Part shown: piece by piece, positions 17,532 through 24,707 of the stretch
How the letters are laid out: every line of letters starts with the position of its first letter
Position numbering within the stretch: position 1 is the first letter of the stretch
Origin: a virus
IMG/VR virus record: IMGVR_UViG_3300028837_001424
Span: 48,592 to 112,591 of that record
Reading direction: 5' to 3' (one strand)
Length of the DNA: 64,000 nt
Program-made: the position numbers and the translations under genes
The notes under the pieces: generated by a model
What the model was told of the DNA's origin: nothing
Seen by the model: the letters and a program-made list of their open reading frames with translations, nothing else
Database searches by the model: none

Positions 17532-18814
17532 TTTTATTTATTAGCGACTTCGATTTTAGGGGTTCGGGATATCTGCACATAGCAACAAGCTTGTGCAACG
17601 AGTTGGCGACTAGACATGGTAGAAAAGTTACTGCGTTGGGCATCGGCTACGACCGATCACAACACAATTGGCCCTTTTCGATTATTCCAGTTCGTCAGCG
17701 CGAATGGGGAAGACATATTCCAGCCATGGTCCATAACTTTATCCAGATGGGGAAATCTGGCCAATGGGATGAAGTAGAGGCGATTGTTGTTGCCTTAGAT
17801 ATTCCTATGCACGCAAATATGATGAAGATCAAAAGGGAAAACACGCCCTATATAGGCATCTTTCCAATTGAGAGCGGCCCTTTATGCAATACATGGGACT
17901 TTGCTATTGGTCACATGAGCGAACGATTAGTGATTAGCGAGTTCGGAAAGCATATGATTGACGAGTCTGGCACCAATACCTCCGTTTATATACCTATAGG
18001 AATCGATTCAACATCTTGGCGTATGCCATCGGATGTAGAAAGGAAGGCAATTAGGAAAGGGATGGGTTATGATGAAGATCAGTTTGTGGTTCTGACGGTT
18101 GCCGATAATCAAGAGCGCAAAAACTTGAGCATAGCGGCAGATGTTATAGAGCGCCTCAAAAAACATTTAAACGTGAGGTGGTCGTTGGTGACTCGAATCA
18201 ACTGTCCAGTAGGCTGGAAGCTCGACGATCTCATGCATCAATTCGACATAATTGATCAAGTAGATAAATATGATAAGGGACTGGCGTTTGATCGGCTATG
18301 GATGCTATATGCTTCAGCAGACGCATTCCTGTTGACGAGCAAGGCCGAGGGGCTTTGTTTACCAATCCTAGAAGCAATGGCAACTGGGTTGCCAGTTGTG
18401 GCAACCTCTTGTACCGCAATTCCCGAACACATTTGGGAAGATCCTGATTGGAGTCGCTGTAGTGATGGTATCTGGCACAAAGGAAAGCCACGAGGCCGAA
18501 GAGGCTATGGTTTGAACGTGGAATACACAACTATTGATCCTTGGGGTAACTCCGTTAGAAGCTTTCCAGATCCCAAGCACGCCGTAAAATTGCTAAGGAA
18601 GATCGCCAAGATGAAGCCGTCTCAAAAGCAGGATTTCATTCAACCAGGTAGGGACTATGCCGTTGGTCGAACTTGGCAACGAGCAGGAAATGTACTGGAA
18701 GAGACGCTCAAACGGGTGATCAAAAAGGCGCAACCAAAAGATGAGCCTGGAACTGTGATACCATCATCACAGCCAAGGGTGATACCCGAAATAACAGAGG
18801 AGAATTCGGTATGA
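17528..18814 (+). CDS. Glycosyltransferase family 4 (GT-B)
   Basis: NQERKN, LYASADAFLLTSKAEGLCLPILEAMATGLPVV. Confidence 0.85.
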   Translation: MILFISDFDFRGSGYLHIATSLCNELATRHGRKVTALGIGYDRSQHNWPFSIIPVRQREWGRHIPAMVHNFIQMGKSGQWDEVEAIVVALDIPMHANMMKIKRENTPYIGIFPIESGPLCNTWDFAIGHMSERLVISEFGKHMIDESGTNTSVYIPIGIDSTSWRMPSDVERKAIRKGMGYDEDQFVVLTVADNQERKNLSIAADVIERLKKHLNVRWSLVTRINCPVGWKLDDLMHQFDIIDQVDKYDKGLAFDRLWMLYASADAFLLTSKAEGLCLPILEAMATGLPVVATSCTAIPEHIWEDPDWSRCSDGIWHKGKPRGRRGYGLNVEYTTIDPWGNSVRSFPDPKHAVKLLRKIAKMKPSQKQDFIQPGRDYAVGRTWQRAGNVLEETLKRVIKKAQPKDEPGTVIPSSQPRVIPEITEENSV

Positions 18815-19710
18815 GCAAGCGCACAAGGGCAAGAAAGCCAAAACAGGGAAGAGCAAGAAAGAAACAAGGACCAGCGCCGAAAACATTGGTTGATATCTGT
18901 ATGCTGGTCTTTGGTGAGTGGGGGTTACTCTCAAAAGCTATCAGGGCGATTCCGGCTGCAGCCGAGGGGCTGAATGCCAGCTATCGAGTCATAGTCGTCG
19001 ATAATGGCACACCTGATTGGGAGACTGAGGAAAAGGAAATTGTAACGGCCAAGGAACAATCAGCACCAATTAAGGAACTGCTTAGGCCACAGGACATCTT
19101 TTTTAGGCTCGATGAAAACAAGGGCTTCCCCGGTGGTTACAACGTCGCGGTCGGCAAGGGGCGCTCGCCGCTTATTCTCATCTTGACTTCAGACGTTTTC
19201 CTGTTTCCTGGCGCGATTACAAAACTTGTTAGCGTTCTGGACGATCCTGAAGTTGGTATCGCAAGCCCGATGTTGCTCTATCCAGCGGACGAATCTCCCC
19301 ACGGGCCTCCTGGTAGCGTGCAGCATGCCGGCATTGGATTCGATATTCGAGGCGATCCCTATCATATTTTCATGGGTTGGCAGCCAGATCATGAGAAGGT
19401 AAATCAGCGTAGAGAGTTACAAGCGGTTACGGGAGCATGTATTCTAACTCGGCGTGCTTTATGGCAAAGAATAGGCGGCTTCTCTGAGCTTTATAATCAG
19501 GGAACATTTGAGGATATGGAGCTTGCATTTGCCATCCGCCAAATGGGCTACAAAATAATTTTCGAGCCAAGCGCGCGAGGTGAACACTATGTTGGAGGTT
19601 CCATAAAACATGGTGCTATGAGGCCGGGTTTTAATCTCGCATTAAATTCAACAATTTTCCGTGGCCGTTGGGCACCATCTCTGAAATGGGATACTTATCG
19701 ATTTTATTGA
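18811..19710 (+). CDS. Glycosyltransferase family 2
   Basis: VVDNG, NKGFPGGYN, VQHAG, AVTGAC, IGGFSELYNQGTFEDMEL. Confidence 0.85.
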   Translation: MSKRTRARKPKQGRARKKQGPAPKTLVDICMLVFGEWGLLSKAIRAIPAAAEGLNASYRVIVVDNGTPDWETEEKEIVTAKEQSAPIKELLRPQDIFFRLDENKGFPGGYNVAVGKGRSPLILILTSDVFLFPGAITKLVSVLDDPEVGIASPMLLYPADESPHGPPGSVQHAGIGFDIRGDPYHIFMGWQPDHEKVNQRRELQAVTGACILTRRALWQRIGGFSELYNQGTFEDMELAFAIRQMGYKIIFEPSARGEHYVGGSIKHGAMRPGFNLALNSTIFRGRWAPSLKWDTYRFY

Positions 19711-19794
19711 CCCTGCCGTGCCAAGCCCAACCTAACATCGCCAGACCTCGCATCGCCAAGCCGTACTCCGCCGCGAACCGCCTAGCCATGCCTC
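19710..19794 (-). ncRNA. Pentamer guide unit A1: 17 x (NN + GGY-type triplet)
   Basis: Minus: GA ggc AT ggc TA ggc GG ttc GC ggc GG agt AC ggc TT ggc GA tgc GA ggt CT ggc GA tgt TA ggt TG ggc TT ggc AC ggc AG ggt. Confidence 0.8.
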
Positions 19795-19807
19795 GTTTAT
19801 AATTCAT

Positions 19808-19872
19808 TCCTAGCCTCGCCACACCGCACCAAACACTGCGCCACCTAGCCGGACACCGCCCCACCTTGCCCT
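19808..19872 (-). ncRNA. Pentamer guide unit A2: 13 x (NN + GGY-type triplet)
   Basis: Minus: AG ggc AA ggt GG ggc GG tgt CC ggc TA ggt GG cgc AG tgt TT ggt GC ggt GT ggc GA ggc TA gga. Confidence 0.8.
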
Positions 19873-19906
19873 AACTGGGGAGAGTTCTCACATACTCTCC
19901 CCAATT
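19873..19906 (-). other. RNA hairpin immediately 5' of array A
   Basis: Minus AATTGGGGAGAGT-atgtgaga-ACTCTCCCCAGTT, 13-bp stem with one U-G wobble that pairs only on the minus strand. Confidence 0.75.
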
Positions 19907-19910
19907 CGAA

Positions 19911-20507
19911 TCAAAGTATCGAAACTTCGAATCGTCCATATGGCCCGCCCTTTGCAGGACGCCAATCGCCAAGACCTACAGCGTTGCCAGCCAGTTCGAG
20001 CCAGTGGATGAGTCTGTCTTTATCCACAAACTCTTCGTTGTACTGTAGCTCGCCTTCAATACTCCAATCTTCTGGAATAATTGGGCGAGTGCGCATGACG
20101 GTAGCCTGCCCGACACGAACGCCAATGCGGAAGCGGAAGCGTTCATCTTTCCACAGTTCCTTGGGATCTTTAGGACCGTCGTATTGAAGGACATAGTGGT
20201 GGTCACAAAATATACCAACACCTGCTGCCTTTCCTTCCTTCTCCATACGAGCGGCGCTACCCCTGCCAGCCAAGGCCGCCTTTAGTAATCGACCTGGAAT
20301 GACAGGCACTCCGTCATTGATGTATAGCGCACCCATAAACTCAAGGCGCGCCATTTCCTCGAAATCCTTCTCAGTCTTCTTGCGCTGAGAACTCACCTTC
20401 TTGAGCTTTTTTGCCCAAGTATTCAATGGATCTGCTAGCTGTCCATTGTGGAGGATCAGGGGGCTGATCCCCGTCAAACGAAATTTCAGAGTCTTCAGGA
20501 CGTTCAT
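19911..20507 (-). CDS. RAMP/Cas7-like protein 1 (putative guide-RNA-binding, Vipr-like), 198 aa
   Basis: RBS GGAG; N-terminal LKFRLTGISPLILH, central IPGRLLKAAL, RTRP..W, C-terminal Gly-rich loop GLGDWRPAKGGPYGRFEV; flanked by pentamer arrays. Confidence 0.75.
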   Translation of the reverse strand: MNVLKTLKFRLTGISPLILHNGQLADPLNTWAKKLKKVSSQRKKTEKDFEEMARLEFMGALYINDGVPVIPGRLLKAALAGRGSAARMEKEGKAAGVGIFCDHHYVLQYDGPKDPKELWKDERFRFRIGVRVGQATVMRTRPIIPEDWSIEGELQYNEEFVDKDRLIHWLELAGNAVGLGDWRPAKGGPYGRFEVSIL

Positions 20508-20805
20508 CGAACTTCTCCAATATCTTAACCGGCAAGCCCGCTTCCACATTGTCCTCTATTATCGTTTCGGCTCGACGTGAGTATCGAAGCCCTCTGATAT
20601 ATGAGGTGAGAAAGTCGTGGCATCGACGGCAGACGGTTATGAGATCCTCACCGATCTCTTCTCCGTATCTTTCGTATGTCTTATGATGCACCTCCAATTC
20701 TTCTACACAAGGAACTCCTGTTAATTCGGCAATGCCGAATATTTTTGAAAGTTGACATTCGTAGTTATCTCTTTCTAGGATTGCTTTTCTTACTAGGTTA
20801 TCCAT
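20371..20805 (-). CDS. HNH endonuclease overlapping the 5' end of the RAMP gene
   Basis: RBS GGAG; RKAILERDNYECQ...C...LEVHHKTY...EDLITVCRRCH. Confidence 0.8.
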   Translation of the reverse strand: MDNLVRKAILERDNYECQLSKIFGIAELTGVPCVEELEVHHKTYERYGEEIGEDLITVCRRCHDFLTSYIRGLRYSRRAETIIEDNVEAGLPVKILEKFDERPEDSEISFDGDQPPDPPQWTASRSIEYLGKKAQEGEFSAQED

Positions 20806-20826
20806 AATGGACTCCGAATAAAGTAA

Positions 20827-20921
20827 TCCTTGCCTCGCCCTGTCGTGCCGGACCTTGCCAAACCGTACCAGACCGCGCCCAAACATACACTGCCAGATCC
20901 AGCCACGCCTGGCCGCGCCTC
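20827..20921 (-). ncRNA. Pentamer guide unit B1: 19 units
   Basis: Plus: tcc TT gcc TC gcc CT gtc GT gcc GG acc TT gcc AA acc GT acc AG acc GC gcc CA aac AT aca CT gcc AG atc CA gcc AC gcc TG gcc GC gcc TC. Confidence 0.8.
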
Positions 20922-20934
20922 GAATATAATTCCT

Positions 20935-21009
20935 TCCCTGCCATGCCCCGCCGTATCCCACCGCGCCAGATCGTGCCTAGCCGGACTTCGCCACGCCAAA
21001 CCACGCCTT
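20935..21009 (-). ncRNA. Pentamer guide unit B2: 15 units
   Basis: Minus NN series: AA GT TT GT GA CC TA AC CT GC GG AC GG AT AG. Confidence 0.8.
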
Positions 21010-21023
21010 GAACATAATTGCTG

Positions 21024-21098
21024 TCCTTGCCGCGCCCCACCAAACCTCTCCATGCAGCACCAAGCCTGGTCGCGCCAAACCTTAACTTACCGTGCCTC
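21024..21098 (-). ncRNA. Pentamer guide unit B3: 15 units
   Basis: Minus NN series: GA AC AA AA TT GC CA TT GC AT GA TT GG GC AA. Confidence 0.8.
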
Positions 21099-21108
21099 GA
21101 AACCAAAA

Positions 21109-21172
21109 TCCCGCCACCCATTATTCGAGGTTGCCCTACCATGAACAAGCCAAGCTGTAATGGGAAGCGGGA
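21109..21172 (-). other. Structured leader stem-loop 5' of array B
   Basis: Minus TCCCGC-tt-CCCATTA ... TAATGGG-tg-GCGGGA with inner TTGTTC/GGGCAA helix. Confidence 0.65.
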
Positions 21173-21227
21173 GTCTGATCTCGATAAAAACAAAAGGCTT
21201 GGTAGATGTCCATGGCAGGTTAGTAGA

Positions 21228-21256
21228 AGTGTACCATAGCGGGCACAGTATGTCAA
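21228..21256 (-). promoter_or_regulatory. Sigma70-type promoter for the array B-HNH-RAMP1-array A operon
   Basis: TTGACA-17 nt-TACACT. Confidence 0.75.
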
Positions 21257-21311
21257 GACCAATGTATTAATCGTTTAAAACAACCAAATTCCATGATATA
21301 ATTATCTTTGC

Positions 21312-21643
21312 ACTTTACCAAACCAATCGCTTGGTGGCTCGAAGAATACCGTTCTACGGGTTAAAAAAGGCACACACGACAGGTGGCGGTGTGGTTCCAG
21401 GCGATGGGAAGCATAAGGGTCGTGGAGATCGGGCGAATGCGCCGCCTTACCGATCGAGCGCGACATCGTTGGTAGCTCAAAACTACATATCCAGTAGACG
21501 ACGATGTGCGGGCAAGATTCCCGCCAGTGACGTTGATGCTAGCTAGGCCAGTTAGCGGAGTCCTGTGGCCCGAATAATGCGACTGATTGCCGAGAGGTTG
21601 GGAGGATTGGCATCCTCCCCTGAGCGATTGTGTTTGGTGAAGT
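21312..21643 (+). ncRNA. Putative ~330-nt structured non-coding RNA of unknown class
   Basis: Ends pair (ACTTTACCAAACCAATCGCTT / GAGCGATTGTGTTTGGTGAAGT), several internal hairpins, extended -10 TGATATAAT at 21294-21302. Confidence 0.6.
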
Positions 21644-21868
21644 CATCAGAAAGGAAATTGGTAAATTTCATGGTAAAATAGATTTGCGAGCGCGCCTCTT
21701 CATTGGGCTATATTTCCCCTAATGATGAGAACTACTCCTGAGTAGCGCTTAGCTCAGGAGGCTAAGCTGGTAACAGCGGACGCGGTAGCCGGTGCCGCTA
21801 TACACAGAGACCGGCAATCACTTTGTAACAAAGGAGGCCAACATGACGAACCTTTAGTGAGGTGAATC

Positions 21869-22072
21869 ATGTCCAAAATTCAGAAAGGCGGTAAGAAAAA
21901 CCGCAAACATGGCCGTGCAGCGCGCAAGCCCAAAACTGCACGGTATCGTATTTCCAATCGTCGAGCAAAAAATAAAACCAAAAGAGTTCTGCGTAGCAGC
22001 GGCAAAAAGGCTGCAAAACAATACGCGCGGGAACAAAACACAACTGGCTATCTACTCAAATTGCTAAGTTGA
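21869..22072 (+). CDS. Small, very basic (K/R-rich) protein
   Basis: RBS GAGGTG; MSKIQKGGKKNRKHGRAARKPK. Confidence 0.6.
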   Translation: MSKIQKGGKKNRKHGRAARKPKTARYRISNRRAKNKTKRVLRSSGKKAAKQYAREQNTTGYLLKLLS

Positions 22073-22139
22073 ACACTGATATGTAACAACTTATTGCACG
22101 ATAACATATTTTATGTTATTGCGAATTTTAATGTTAATG

Positions 22140-22173
22140 AAAAAGCCCCTAAGCTGGAAGCCAGGGACTTTTT
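22140..22173. terminator. Bidirectional intrinsic terminator
   Basis: AAAAAGCCCCTAAGC-tggaa-GCCAGGGACTTTT between convergent units. Confidence 0.6.
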
Positions 22174-22226
22174 CGTATCGCGCCATTGTGCCACTCCGGC
22201 ACGGTTACATTATATCACAACTGGGC

Positions 22227-22664
22227 TTACTCAGCGACGATTGGCTCAGGGAGCATTTCTCCCATAATGTCGGTTTCTATTTCGGCCAATCTATAAGTAT
22301 CCGTATCAGTAAGATGCTCAAAACCGACTCGGTAATACGTCCGCACGTTTTGATTAAAGCTAACGTAGTCAATCCAGCCGCGAATAACGTAATAATCAAG
22401 AGCGTTAGGCTCATTCTTGTATTCCTTCATGTCACATTCGGACCACTCTTGAAATACTGCTCCCGTCTTATCCCATAGAATATCTTCGATGGTCTTTTGA
22501 GAGCGGCTGCATAGCTGACCCTTAATTGACGGGCCTTGATCACTGGTAGTTGCTTTACCATTTAGTAAATAATGTGCGGAAGTGGCAACGGCATATGCCA
22601 GCAGAATGAGAGTAAAAACGGCAACATATCTTAGACATCCTTTACCGGTCGTATTTTTCTTCAT
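22227..22664 (-). CDS. Hypothetical membrane-anchored protein with its own promoter (moron-like)
   Basis: N-terminal TM segment YVAVFTLILLAYAVA; RBS AAGGA. Confidence 0.6.
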   Translation of the reverse strand: MKKNTTGKGCLRYVAVFTLILLAYAVATSAHYLLNGKATTSDQGPSIKGQLCSRSQKTIEDILWDKTGAVFQEWSECDMKEYKNEPNALDYYVIRGWIDYVSFNQNVRTYYRVGFEHLTDTDTYRLAEIETDIMGEMLPEPIVAE

Positions 22665-22687
22665 GGTATTTATCCTTTACTGTGATT

Positions 22688-22732
22688 ATGCTACCCGATA
22701 CGGTACAGTATGTCAAGTTACCTTGGTACTAT
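22688..22732 (-). promoter_or_regulatory. Promoter with conserved upstream box (copy 1)
   Basis: ATAGTACCAAGGTAAC-TTGACA-17-TAGCAT. Confidence 0.65.
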
Positions 22733-22741
22733 CAATAAATA

Positions 22742-22769
22742 AAGAGGCGGGTATATATACCTGCCTCTT
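22742..22769 (-). terminator. Intrinsic terminator ending the RAMP2 operon
   Basis: Minus AAGAGGCAGGTAT/ATACCCGCCTCTT followed by TATTTATT. Confidence 0.55.
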
Positions 22770-22881
22770 GTGCTGTCTGGCAACCAGACGATCACCCACC
22801 ACTGATTGTCAACTTATAAGTTGTCAAATGATGATGGAATGACAACAAATATGTTATCAACAACTAAAGCTCAATGCGATT

Positions 22882-23076
22882 TTAGATCTCATTGATAAAT
22901 TGTCCAAGTCGTTCAACTTTTTCTTGAACAACACTAAAGTTTTTTGCGACACGAGCAACATCTCCAAAAATCAAGCCCCTATTTGCTTTATCAAGAGCTT
23001 TATTAATGTCTTGATACAAGCTCTTGGCAGTCTCGATGGGTTTGTAATTGGCACAGTTCTCACAAGTTTTGTTCAT
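22882..23076 (-). CDS. Small hypothetical protein (CxxC) downstream of array C
   Basis: RBS GGAGGT; MNKTCENCANY. Confidence 0.55.
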   Translation of the reverse strand: MNKTCENCANYKPIETAKSLYQDINKALDKANRGLIFGDVARVAKNFSVVQEKVERLGQFINEI

Positions 23077-23099
23077 CTTAGTTACCTCCGATGTAAAAA

Positions 23100-23234
23100 G
23101 CTTTGCTATGCTTTGCTCTGCTTTGCTGCGCTCTGCTGCGCTGCGCTTTGCTAAGCTTTGCTGGGCTCGGCTACGCTGCGCTTGGCTGCGCTCCGCTTGG
23201 CTAGGCTCGGCTGCGCTCTGCTGCGCTGCGCTAC
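23100..23234 (-). ncRNA. Pentamer array C: 27 x (NN + AGC)
   Basis: Plus strand GCT-NN 27 times with invariant GCT; begins 5 nt after the RAMP2 stop codon; followed by a T tract on minus. Confidence 0.75.
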
Positions 23235-23239
23235 GACCA

Positions 23240-23878
23240 CTATTCCATTGTTACAGGGTTAGTATCCTTCTCAAGAGTTTGCACAGTCCCGATTTCTTTA
23301 ACTTTCTTCCATTCAACTACTTCAAATGAACCAAAGGTTGGTCTATAGGCACATAGCCCTACGAATATACCGCCACGATTAAACCAATCCTCGGCCTTGG
23401 AAATGCTGAAATACTCATTTTCGTAAATGCTTATATTGAATTTTAATGACCAGGGCAAATCCAAAACGGGACGACTCACATTGACCCTAACTTTTGGGTT
23501 TGGCCTTGCCATTCTTGTATCTATGTAAAATGGAGACTTATTCAAATCTTCGGCGACCTCCAGTTTTACATTGCTTTCTTCGTGTTCTTTTCCATTTTGG
23601 AAAGGAATATATGCGGGTTGCACAGAGATACAACCACGGATCACTGGAGACAAAGTTTTCCACTCTTTGCTATTTACAAACATCCGTAGGCAGGAATGGC
23701 TATCTTTACTCGCCAGAAAGCCTTCGATGCTTGAGCTTGGCAAGCAGACGGTTTTGCCGTCGCGGGGGTCGAGGTAAATTTTTTGCTCGACGGGCGTTTC
23801 GTCCTGCGAGACCCATTTGTCGAACATGATCGGCGTCAGACCGTTTAAGACTACTTGTACTTTCACCATGTTTAGCAT
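23240..23878 (-). CDS. RAMP/Cas7-like protein 2 (Vipr-like), 212 aa
   Basis: VQVVLNGLTPIMFD, LPSSSIEGFL, SRPVLDLPWSLKF, GGIFVGLCAYRPTFGSFEV: same motif order as RAMP1. Confidence 0.7.
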   Translation of the reverse strand: MLNMVKVQVVLNGLTPIMFDKWVSQDETPVEQKIYLDPRDGKTVCLPSSSIEGFLASKDSHSCLRMFVNSKEWKTLSPVIRGCISVQPAYIPFQNGKEHEESNVKLEVAEDLNKSPFYIDTRMARPNPKVRVNVSRPVLDLPWSLKFNISIYENEYFSISKAEDWFNRGGIFVGLCAYRPTFGSFEVVEWKKVKEIGTVQTLEKDTNPVTME

Positions 23879-24236
23879 TGTTCTTGCTCCTTTCGCTTAT
23901 AAAGCGGCGCGACTGGTCAACCAATTCTCGGCGCGCATCACTTATTCTTTCTATTAGAGGTTGCTCTTTTCCTTCCAACCAGTTTATTACGAGCTTTAGA
24001 ATTTCATCATCAAGTTTAAATATCTCCCGATCATCAAAGCAATAAGAAGCCAGTAGGCACTTAAGTTCATCTTCGACTTTCAGGGGTTCATCAACTAGGC
24101 TGGCGTGGCATATTGTTAATTTGCTGTTGGCGGCTAAAAAAGCACGATAGCGCCTATTGAAATCGTCGGCTTTTCCTATTTTGAATAGATTATCAAATCC
24201 GAGGTCAAATAGGTAAACGTAGCCGCTAGACATCAT
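23706..24236 (-). CDS. GIY-YIG family (T5orf172/Mug113-like) nuclease overlapping the 5' end of RAMP2
   Basis: GYVYL....LFKIGK..D..RR...VEDEL...REIF; RBS AAGGAG. Confidence 0.75.
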   Translation of the reverse strand: MMSSGYVYLFDLGFDNLFKIGKADDFNRRYRAFLAANSKLTICHASLVDEPLKVEDELKCLLASYCFDDREIFKLDDEILKLVINWLEGKEQPLIERISDARRELVDQSRRFISERSKNNAKHGESTSSLKRSDADHVRQMGLAGRNARRAKNLPRPPRRQNRLLAKLKHRRLSGE

Positions 24237-24256
24237 TCTCCTTCATTTGTAACTTA

Positions 24257-24285
24257 ATCATATCACATACTTGATTATGAGGCAA
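24257..24285 (-). promoter_or_regulatory. Candidate promoter for GIY-YIG-RAMP2-array C operon
   Basis: TTGCCT-17-TATGAT. Confidence 0.5.
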
Positions 24286-24392
24286 ATTTAAATAGACGGT
24301 GCAAATGCTCTACTAACCCATTACAAAAATGGCTAATATAAAGTCGAATTTGAAGTTTTTTCGTCGCGGCAATTTGTGGAGGGATGTGAGAA

Positions 24393-24707
24393 ATGACCGA
24401 GGAACAAGCAACGCAAGGTCCGAAGCTCGATCCGCGCTACAACCCAGCAGTTGAAAATAGCAAGATCAGGATAGAGTTTTCGGGGAATACCGCGCGCATC
24501 GCCGACGTTGGCTTTTACCAAGTTGATTCGTTTCAACTAATTGCGATTGGCGAGTATTTGAAGCAGCGCGGCCTTCAAATGATTGCAATGACTGAGGCTA
24601 AAGTTGCTCAGGACATGATGCGACGTGCCCAAGCCGAAAAAATAGCAGTCGCCGGACGTATTCCTGAGCCTGACGAGCTACCTGCTAACATGAGGCCACC
24701 TGGCTAG
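24393..24707 (+). CDS. Hypothetical protein
   Basis: RBS GGAGG. Confidence 0.55.
   Translation: MTEEQATQGPKLDPRYNPAVENSKIRIEFSGNTARIADVGFYQVDSFQLIAIGEYLKQRGLQMIAMTEAKVAQDMMRRAQAEKIAVAGRIPEPDELPANMRPPG

What the first reader, a model, noticed from the sequence alone, without database searches (positions are those of the whole stretch)
19710..21098. The NN code is gapped (NN-x-NN-x) and lands on codon positions 1-2, skipping the wobble base
Seen: joining the variable dinucleotides with a one-base gap and reading them as codon starts gives recognisable conserved peptides in 3 of 5 units (RAMP C-terminus, GT2 ED motif, integrase HxLRH box). Two read in the RNA's own sense and one in antisense. 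Inference: the target is dsDNA rather than mRNA, every third target base is ignored, and guides are retained when they phase with codons of conserved motifs. Such guides would be almost immune to escape by synonymous third-position mutation, effectively recognising a peptide motif at the DNA level.
Basis: partly seen in the sequence, partly recalled or inferred. Interest (0 to 1): 0.95.

Follow-up and report, generated by a model that had tools for sequence, protein, structure and literature searches.

The report
VIPR gapped-guide locus in sediment phage

Summary
Window 19708-21096 holds five GGY-NN pentamer arrays on the minus strand around an HNH gene and a small Cas7-like (RAMP) gene. This is a VIPR locus. 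[quoted passage not shown]

My own tests agree:
- Guide A1 matches the GT2 gene of related ~100-112 kb viruses at 28/34 read bases, only with a one-base gap (0/200 shuffles reach it; gaps 0, 2 and 3 are at chance). The phage's own GT2 allele scores 21/34.
- Guide A2 matches the end of its own vipr gene 18/20 (1/1000 shuffles).
- The first 8 dinucleotides of B1 hit 41 viral contigs, and 38 of them read H[MI]LRHTCA, the integrase box II.
- B2 matches an HK97 capsid gene 24/28.

This scan has already noted VIPR in at least 268 other genomes.

One point may be new. In this HNH-linked clade, the outermost guide tends to read a variant allele of the gene that flanks the cassette (13/190 guides at p<=0.01; reversed-guide control 0). 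The 4.7-kb island holding both VIPR systems is missing from four relatives. This suggests homing-like or allele-exclusion behaviour, which I did not prove.

The parts
21228..21256 (-). promoter-like site (TTGACA-17-TACACT) about 130 nt upstream of array B3; candidate operon promoter
   Evidence: consensus scan only
21027..21096 (-). vrRNA unit B3, 14 GGY-NN pentamers; target not identified
   Evidence: seed scan and extension at chance
20938..21007 (-). vrRNA unit B2, 14 pentamers; candidate target is an HK97-type major capsid gene (24/28 read bases in L214)
20830..20919 (-). vrRNA unit B1, 18 pentamers; its first 8 dinucleotides read the tyrosine-integrase box II (HMLRHTCA) in antisense
20920..20937 (-). 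18-nt linker between units (GGAAGGAATTATATTCGA on minus). Linkers of the same kind lie at 21008-21026 and 19793-19810. The motif GGAnGGCATyATTCrCAr is conserved in relatives
20371..20805 (-). HNH endonuclease gene (accessory 'vap'), overlapping the start of vipr
   Evidence: Pfam PF01844 E 1.7e-4 and PHROG HNH families; homologous HNH gene directly upstream of vipr in 67 of 84 loci
19911..20507 (-). vipr gene: a 198-aa minimal RAMP (Cas7-like) protein
   Evidence: phrog_4652 E 3e-50; 35.8% identity to the phiSUSP1 and SUSP2 gene; AlphaFold2 (AF2) model pLDDT 94 with top structural matches Cmr4/Csm3/Cas7, Z up to 11.5
19923..19952 (-). near-self site of guide A2 in the vipr C-terminal G-loop (KGGPYGRFEV), 18/20 read bases
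19877..19902 (.). 8-9 bp GC-rich hairpin between the vipr stop and unit A2, with no T-run on either strand
   Evidence: read from the sequence
19811..19870 (-). vrRNA unit A2, 12 pentamers; reads the C-terminus of Vipr proteins
19708..19792 (-). vrRNA unit A1, 17 pentamers, outermost and abutting the GT2 stop codon; reads the conserved YGAGTFEDxDYCF motif of GT2 genes
19489..19539 (+). own GT2 allele at the A1 site (LYNQGTFEDMELAFAIR), 21/34 read bases; it departs from the family consensus at near-invariant G and C
19711..24392 (.). 4.7-kb island holding both VIPR systems; absent between the GT2 gene and the next gene in four syntenic relatives
23096..23232 (-). array of the second system: 27 AGC-NN pentamers, starting 7 nt after the stop of the second vipr-like gene
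23240..23869 (-). second, divergent vipr paralog
   Evidence: hhalign against the Vipr profile, probability 95%, E 4e-8; phrog_4652 8e-7
23706..24236 (-). T5orf172 (GIY-YIG-like) gene overlapping the start of the second vipr
   Evidence: Pfam PF10544 E 1.6e-5

Best explanation
This is a VIPR (Viral Interference Programmable Repeat) locus in a ~112-kb virus from marine sediment.

Proposed mechanism:
1. The minus strand is probably transcribed as one unit: B3-B2-B1, HNH, vipr, hairpin, A2-A1. Transcription and processing are inferred.
2. The transcript is cut into five vrRNAs.
3. Vipr, a minimal Cas7-like RAMP, polymerises on each vrRNA, one protomer per pentamer. It hides the GGY triplet and presents the NN dinucleotide. 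This is shown for the SUSP1 system and inferred here.
4. The presented dinucleotides pair with one strand of dsDNA while every third target base is skipped.
5. Because the guides are kept in register with codons, the skipped base is the wobble base, so synonymous changes do not free a target.

The guides here read conserved motifs: A1 a GT2 glycosyltransferase, A2 the C-terminus of rival Vipr proteins, B1 a tyrosine integrase, and B2 an HK97 capsid protein. The linked HNH nuclease suggests that the target is cut and not merely silenced. That is an inference.
For: Protein:
- phrog_4652, E 3e-50.
- A homologue of the vipr gene of phages phiSUSP1 and SUSP2, the published model system.
- RAMP fold, Z 11.5-10 to Cmr4/Csm3.

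RNA genes:
- In 84 loci with a homologue, 209 GGY-NN arrays lie on the gene strand and 1 on the other strand.

Rule:
- A1 at gap 1 scores 28/34 in relatives' GT2 genes with 0/200 shuffles reaching it; gaps 0, 2 and 3 are at chance.
- A2 scores 18/20, p about 0.001.
- Codon phase.

Published experiments on related systems:
- Gel-shift binding assays (EMSA) with competitor DNA.
- GFP repression only with 1-nt-skip targets.
- Cryo-EM structures of the filament.
- Satellite recombinase silencing.
Against: - There is no expression or biochemical data for this locus, and no RNA run holds it.
- B3 and the AGC-NN array have no target.
- B1 matches over only half its length.
- A2's exact target was not found as DNA.
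- The units carry an 18-nt linker, not the pseudoknot tail of the SUSP1 clade.
- HNH activity is untested.
Confidence: 0.9

Rival explanations
1. The cassette is an RNA-guided homing or allele-exclusion element. This extends the best explanation and does not replace it. The outermost guides read variant alleles of the genes next to the cassette (A1 the flanking GT2 gene, A2 a rival vipr). The HNH nuclease cuts genomes that carry the susceptible allele during co-infection. The cassette, together with its own mismatched and therefore immune flanks, is then favoured or copied in by repair.
For: - The 4.7-kb island is absent from four syntenic relatives, where GT2 is followed within 50-120 nt by the next gene.
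- A1 abuts GT2, and its site lies about 170-220 nt from the junction.
- The own allele scores 21/34, against up to 28/34 (DNA) or 29/34 (protein level) in relatives. It departs from the family at residues that are 97-98% conserved.
- In 190 guides from 83 other loci of this clade, near-self matches to flanking DNA are enriched only at gap 1: 13 at p<=0.01 (binomial 9e-8). The reversed-guide control gives 0, and gaps 0, 2 and 3 give 0, 1 and 0.
- In 10 of 14 cases the guide is the outermost array on the side of the targeted flank.
- The HNH gene is conserved upstream of vipr in 67/84 loci.
Against: - The relatives in hand share only about 50% protein identity, which is too far for homologous repair.
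- The closest GT2 homologue (81% identity) also carries the 'NQ' variant.
- No cleavage, copying or empty-versus-filled pair of near-identical genomes was seen.
- Plain interference with related co-infecting viruses would give the same pattern.
- Motifs in neighbouring genes may simply be the ones a rival of the same family is sure to carry.
Confidence: 0.25
2. The peptide readings are pareidolia. On this view the NN positions vary neutrally in a protein-binding repeat RNA, and the matches to conserved motifs are chance.
For: - Inside the window, A1's match to GT2 (15/20, 21/34) is no better than shuffles.
- An all-against-all search in 400 kb of loci was only weakly enriched at gap 1: 9 observed against 4 shuffled at >=18/20.
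- 10-dinucleotide exact scans found nothing.
Against: - A1 against relatives: 0/200 shuffles reach the score, only at gap 1, with the top three hits being the GT2 gene in three separate genomes.
- A2: 1/1000 shuffles, and the site lies in the adjacent gene.
- 38 of 41 B1 seed hits are integrase box II, where about 6% is expected if the wobble bases were random.
- Published reprogramming experiments.
Confidence: 0.03
3. The guides act on mRNA and not on DNA, as antisense regulators of translation or stability.
For: B1 reads its motif in antisense, so it could pair with an integrase mRNA. The structural relatives of the protein (Csm3, Cmr4) belong to RNA-targeting type III complexes.
Against: A1, A2 and B2 have the same sense as the coding strand of their targets, so they cannot pair with the mRNA. 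Published binding assays and structures show dsDNA targets on either strand.
Confidence: 0.04

Closest known systems
VIPR type II system of Escherichia phage SUSP1 (Vipr + vap1 + vrRNAs; bioRxiv 10.64898/2026.04.26.720920, .720927, 10.64898/2026.10.15.759431)
   Same: - Homologous Vipr protein (35.8% identity).
- GGY-NN pentamer vrRNAs on the gene strand on both sides of the genes.
- One-base skip in codon register.
- Targets include a recombinase and rival vipr genes, with the self-match lower than the non-self match.
   Different: - The accessory gene here is an HNH nuclease that lies upstream of vipr and overlaps it, not a DNA-binding vap1 downstream.
- Units are packed head to tail with an 18-nt linker, not a pseudoknot tail.
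- Arrays have 12-18 repeats.
- The host virus is an uncultured ~112-kb sediment virus.
Nuclease-associated VIPR types (III-V) of the same preprint
   Same: The vap is a predicted nuclease (an HNH domain is shown for a representative vap in fig. S21). The guides match viral sequences in IMG/VR.
   Different: The preprint describes these types as enriched in host defence islands. Here the system sits in a virus genome and one guide reads the gene next to it. The supplementary type tables were not read, so I could not assign a type number.
Class 1 CRISPR Cas7 backbone (Cascade, Csm, Cmr)
   Same: A RAMP fold with a G-rich loop. The protein polymerises on a guide RNA, with periodic interruption of guide-target pairing.
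   Different: - Period of 5 nt on the guide with only 2 paired, against 6 nt with 5 paired.
- Guide and target are out of step (5 against 3).
- No CRISPR repeats, Cas1/2, Cas5/6 or large subunit.
- Guides are hard-wired and not acquired.
Free-standing homing endonucleases of phages (T4 seg/mob genes) and TnpB/IscB guide-directed transposon retention
   Same: A nuclease gene in a small insertion that is absent from relatives. Recognition of a conserved site in the neighbouring gene. The carrier's own allele is mismatched.
   Different: Recognition would be by RNA through a gapped code, not by the protein or by a contiguous guide. No homing event was shown.

Membership tests
VIPR system | Vipr protein: a small single-domain RAMP (RRM core, G-rich loop, thumb) homologous to published Vipr proteins | tested here: met
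   - tblastn to the phiSUSP1 and SUSP2 gene: 35.8% identity over 93%, E 3e-25.
- phrog_4652, E 3e-50.
- AF2 model pLDDT 94; the top 22 structural matches are all CRISPR RAMPs, Z up to 11.5.
- C-terminal GLGDWRPAKGGPYGRF loop.
VIPR system | vrRNA genes: tandem YNNGG (GGY/NN) pentamers, about 9-16 per unit, in the intergenic DNA flanking vipr, on the gene strand | tested here: met
   Five units of 12-18 pentamers on the minus strand. In 84 homologous loci there are 209 arrays on the gene strand and 1 on the other.
VIPR system | Conserved 3' tail after the repeat tract (a pseudoknot in the SUSP1 clade) | tested here: inconclusive
   Each unit ends in GGCA[AG] followed by a conserved ~18-nt linker (GGAnGGCATyATTCrCAr). 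No pseudoknot was sought, and the preprint also describes other array architectures.
VIPR system | Two-gene operon of vipr plus an accessory vap gene, with no CRISPR array or other cas genes | tested here: met
   An HNH gene overlaps vipr and is conserved in 67/84 loci. No Rfam family, CRISPR repeats included, was found in the window.
VIPR system | Targets follow the 1-nt skip rule, with the skipped base mostly at the codon wobble position, on either strand | tested here: met
   - A1: 28/34 at gap 1 against <=23 at gaps 0, 2 and 3, and 0/200 shuffles.
- A2: 18/20 at gap 1 only.
- Codon phase.
- Sense orientation for A1, A2 and B2; antisense for B1.
VIPR system | vrRNAs are expressed, co-purify with Vipr, and direct binding to dsDNA | not testable with these tools
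   No RNA run holds the stretch. This needs small-RNA sequencing and binding assays.
Homing endonuclease cassette | Nuclease cuts the cassette-free allele near the insertion site and the cassette is copied in by repair | not testable with these tools
   Only indirect evidence: the island is absent in four relatives, the guide site is about 200 nt from the junction, and the own allele is mismatched.

The most novel reading that the evidence does not exclude
In the HNH-linked VIPR clade, the outermost guide of a cassette is aimed at a variant allele of the gene that flanks the cassette, and another guide is aimed at rival vipr genes. The cassette would then behave as an RNA-guided analogue of a free-standing homing endonuclease, or as an allele-exclusion device. 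It would cut co-infecting relatives that carry the consensus allele, while the carrier is protected by substitutions inside the guide site.
Probability: 0.25. Interest if true: 0.7.

Novelty: new member of a known kind. Interest (0 to 1): 0.3.

Why it matters
It was reported only in 2026. This locus gives an independent computational confirmation on uncultured sediment viruses and on a nuclease-linked clade that the preprints treat only briefly. If the flank-directed guides reflect homing or allele exclusion, VIPR would be a selfish mobile cassette as well as a silencing weapon. That bears on how RNA-guided nucleases spread and on the proposed descent of CRISPR from viral systems.

Tried and rejected
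- Rfam at gathering thresholds found nothing in the window.
- PADLOC found no defence family for the four proteins.
A2's exact target therefore rests on protein-level inference.
- The search for related loci with the single protein found no close viral relative.
- Exact 10-dinucleotide gap-1 scans gave 0 hits: A2 and B1 in viral contigs, B1 and B2 in genome contigs.
- The A1 8-dinucleotide seed hit 12 contigs, none a GT2 gene, with extension at chance.
- The B3 seed hit 29 contigs with extension at chance.
- In the own genome and in three whole relatives, nothing exceeded shuffles for B1, B2, B3 or the AGC-NN array (tested whole or split in two) at gaps 0-3.
- Four annotated phage loci (LESphi2, wV8, LittleE, MakoManhole) gave no convincing self-match: one of 12 arrays beat all 100 shuffles at gap 1 (LittleE, 14/16, not followed up) and the rest were at chance.
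- No RNA holder was listed for the stretch.
- A G-quadruplex reading of the GG-N3 repeats was dropped because the paralogous array uses AGC.
- The plus-strand TATAAT-like motifs between units are part of a conserved linker also found in relatives with other sequences, so I do not read them as promoters.
Full report
**What is there**

The stretch 19708-21096 contains five arrays with a strict 5-nt period, NN-RCC on the plus strand and GGY-NN on the minus strand. A four-unit pattern occurs 8 times in the window against 0.13 expected. A periodicity scan finds it only here and, with another constant triplet, at 23096-23232.

Between the arrays, on the minus strand, lie two overlapping genes:
- an HNH endonuclease gene, 20371-20805 (Pfam PF01844);
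- a 198-aa gene, 19911-20507, that matches PHROG 4652 at E 3e-50 and has no Pfam family.

Reading the minus strand 5' to 3', the order is:
1. a promoter-like site at 21256-21228;
2. arrays B3, B2, B1;
3. HNH;
4. the small gene;
5. a GC-rich hairpin at 19877-19902;
6. arrays A2, A1. A1 ends at the stop codon of a convergent GT2 glycosyltransferase gene (18811-19710).

Units are joined by an 18-nt linker whose motif (GGAnGGCATyATTCrCAr) recurs in relatives.

**What the protein is**

tblastn finds the small protein in 135 phage records, including Felixounaviruses such as wV8, phiSUSP1 and SUSP2, Mycobacterium phage LittleE, Gordonia phages and Pseudomonas LESphi2. All four loci I fetched have GGY-NN arrays beside the gene, on its strand.

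In 80 further metagenomic loci plus those four:
- 209 arrays lie on the gene strand and 1 on the other;
- 72 of 84 loci have at least one array;
- a homologous HNH gene sits directly upstream in 67 of 84.

An AlphaFold2 model built on 35 homologues has pLDDT 94.3. Its best structural matches are CRISPR backbone RAMPs (Cmr4, Csm3, type VII Cas7). Foldseek gives E 1.6e-4 and VIA-align gives Z 11.5-10, with the top 22 entries all CRISPR RAMPs.

**It is a known kind of system**

[quoted passage not shown] It defines VIPR as:
- Vipr, a minimal RAMP;
- an accessory vap gene;
- vrRNAs of 9-16 GGY/NN repeats.

The paper shows the "1 nt skip rule" by pangenome searches, competitor gel shifts, GFP repression and reprogramming against lambda. 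Skipped bases fall mostly on the wobble position, and targets lie on either DNA strand. SUSP1, its model phage, is among my hits.

A companion paper gives cryo-EM structures in which Vipr sequesters each GGY and presents NN while every third target base is skipped. A third paper shows a guide reading a satellite recombinase in codon register. It also describes guides aimed near the start or end of rival vipr genes, with self-match lower than non-self.

This scan has also noted VIPR in at least 268 other genomes.

**Independent tests on this window's guides**

I wrote a gapped matcher that scores only the NN positions, and compared gaps 0-4 with guides whose dinucleotide order was shuffled.

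In the window and in the whole 112.6-kb virus record, only A2 stands out. It scores 18/20 at gap 1 on the vipr C-terminus (19952-19923, KGGPYGRFEV). Only 1 of 1000 shuffles reaches this, and other gaps give 14-15.

A1's match to the adjacent GT2 gene (15/20; 21/34 over the full guide) is not above shuffles. So I asked whether A1 reads other alleles:
- GT2 homologues from other contigs, scored at codon positions 1-2, reach 29/34 at the homologous site (for example MYGAGTFEDMEYCFAAR), against 19-23 for shuffles.
- At the DNA level, in 24 viral loci with a GT2 homologue, A1 scores 28, 27 and 25 of 34 at gap 1. No shuffle in 200 reaches this (maximum 24). Gaps 0, 2 and 3 give 21-22.
- In three whole related genomes (317 kb), the three best gap-1 hits are the GT2 gene of each genome: 28, 25 and 24, with a shuffle maximum of 23.
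- In 22 of 24 loci the best site is the homologous one, in codon phase.
- Across 20 sites the majority-base fraction is 0.84 at each read position and 0.52 at the skipped one.

B1: its first eight dinucleotides at gap 1 hit 41 IMG/VR contigs. In 38 of them the antisense frame reads H[MI]LRHTCA. About 6% would do so if the free wobble bases were random. Four ORFs tested are Pfam Phage_integrase. The rest of the guide does not match these genes (best 27/36), so the true target is a different integrase.

B2: a seed scan found a contig (L214) with ten consecutive exact dinucleotides and 24/28 overall. The match is in sense and in phase in an HK97-type major capsid gene (PF05065, E 2e-33). I rate this as a candidate (roughly p 0.02 given six seed hits).

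B3 and the AGC-NN array have no target.

A1, A2 and B2 have the sense of the target's coding strand, so they cannot pair with its mRNA. This supports DNA as the target.

**Beyond the finding**

The window's genome is syntenic with four viral contigs of 52-112 kb, one of them complete with terminal repeats. In all four, the GT2 gene is followed within 50-120 nt by the homologue of window ORF 24393-24707. So 19711-24392, which holds both VIPR systems, is an island they lack.

A1, the outermost guide, abuts GT2 and reads a site 170-220 nt inside it. The phage's own allele (LYNQGTFEDMELAFAIR) departs from the family consensus (VYGAGTFEDMDYCFAVR) at a G that is 97% conserved and a C that is 98% conserved. 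It scores lower than 20 of 22 homologues.

A2 would match the closest Vipr homologues (…KGGPYGRF[ET]VEIL) at up to 21/24. The own gene scores 19/24 on that same protein-level scale, which is 18/24 at the DNA level.

I then tested 190 guides from the 83 other loci against their own contigs, with arrays masked:
- At gap 1, 13 guides beat their shuffles at p<=0.01 (binomial 9e-8) and 22 at p<=0.05.
- Reversed guides give 0 and 3.
- Gaps 0, 2 and 3 give 0, 1 and 0 at p<=0.01.
- The sites lie in long ORFs in codon phase and match 70-83% over the whole guide, with amino-acid-like differences (for example a Walker A box, LLLGETGSGK).
- In 10 of 14 cases the guide is the outermost array on the side of the targeted flank.

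This layout, together with a conserved HNH gene, resembles a free-standing homing endonuclease whose specificity is held in RNA. It could equally be plain interference with relatives that are sure to carry the neighbouring gene. The relatives in hand are too distant (about 50% protein identity) for repair-mediated copying, and no homing event was seen. Preprints 1 and 3 do not contain the words "homing" or "allele". I did not read their supplementary tables.

**Second system**

At 23096-24236 a T5orf172 (GIY-YIG-like) gene overlaps a divergent vipr paralog (hhalign probability 95%, E 4e-8 against the Vipr profile). It is followed by 27 AGC-NN pentamers. The preprint mentions variant repeats such as YNNNG, into which CNNAG fits. 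The paralog has only three homologues in the protein collection.

**Verdict**

- The locus is a new member of a known kind.
- The flank-directed guides are the only part that may add something new.

Noticed in passing
window 23096-24236: A second, paralogous VIPR-like system: a T5orf172/GIY-YIG-like gene overlaps a divergent vipr gene, followed by 27 AGC-NN pentamers with an internal repeat of the series GC GC AG GC. No target was found at gaps 0-4. The paralog has only three homologues in the protein collection.
   Followed up: partly
window 19711-24392: Both VIPR systems sit in a 4.7-kb minus-strand island inside a plus-strand gene run. In four syntenic viral contigs (L138-L141) the GT2 gene is followed directly by the homologue of ORF 24393-24707.
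   Followed up: yes
L006, L007, L011, L032, L040, L060, L065, L074, L075, L078 (metagenome loci): In the HNH-linked clade, the outermost guide of a cassette often matches, at a one-base gap and 70-83% of read bases, a long ORF in the flank next to it. Examples are a Walker A motif in L074 and 20/24 in L078. The enrichment is seen only at gap 1.
   Followed up: partly
window 19489-19539: The phage's own GT2 allele carries N in place of a 97%-conserved G and A in place of a 98%-conserved C, inside the site read by guide A1. This may be escape from self-targeting, or a sign that the enzyme is altered.
   Followed up: partly
window 21100-23080: The stretch between the two systems holds only short ORFs with no Pfam match (22113-22478 +, 22227-22664 -). 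Its content is unexplained.
   Followed up: partly
L085-L125 (IMG/VR contigs): Many of the contigs that carry the HMLRHTCA integrase are 41-42.6 kb long, which suggests one widespread family of temperate phages or satellites. They are not full matches to guide B1.
   Followed up: no
L002 (Escherichia phage wV8) 3768-3825 and 5161-5218: The repeat_region 'DR_4' annotated in the GenBank record on both sides of gp096/gp095 overlaps the ends of the vrRNA units. The record's annotators had seen part of the VIPR RNAs as a plain direct repeat.
   Followed up: no
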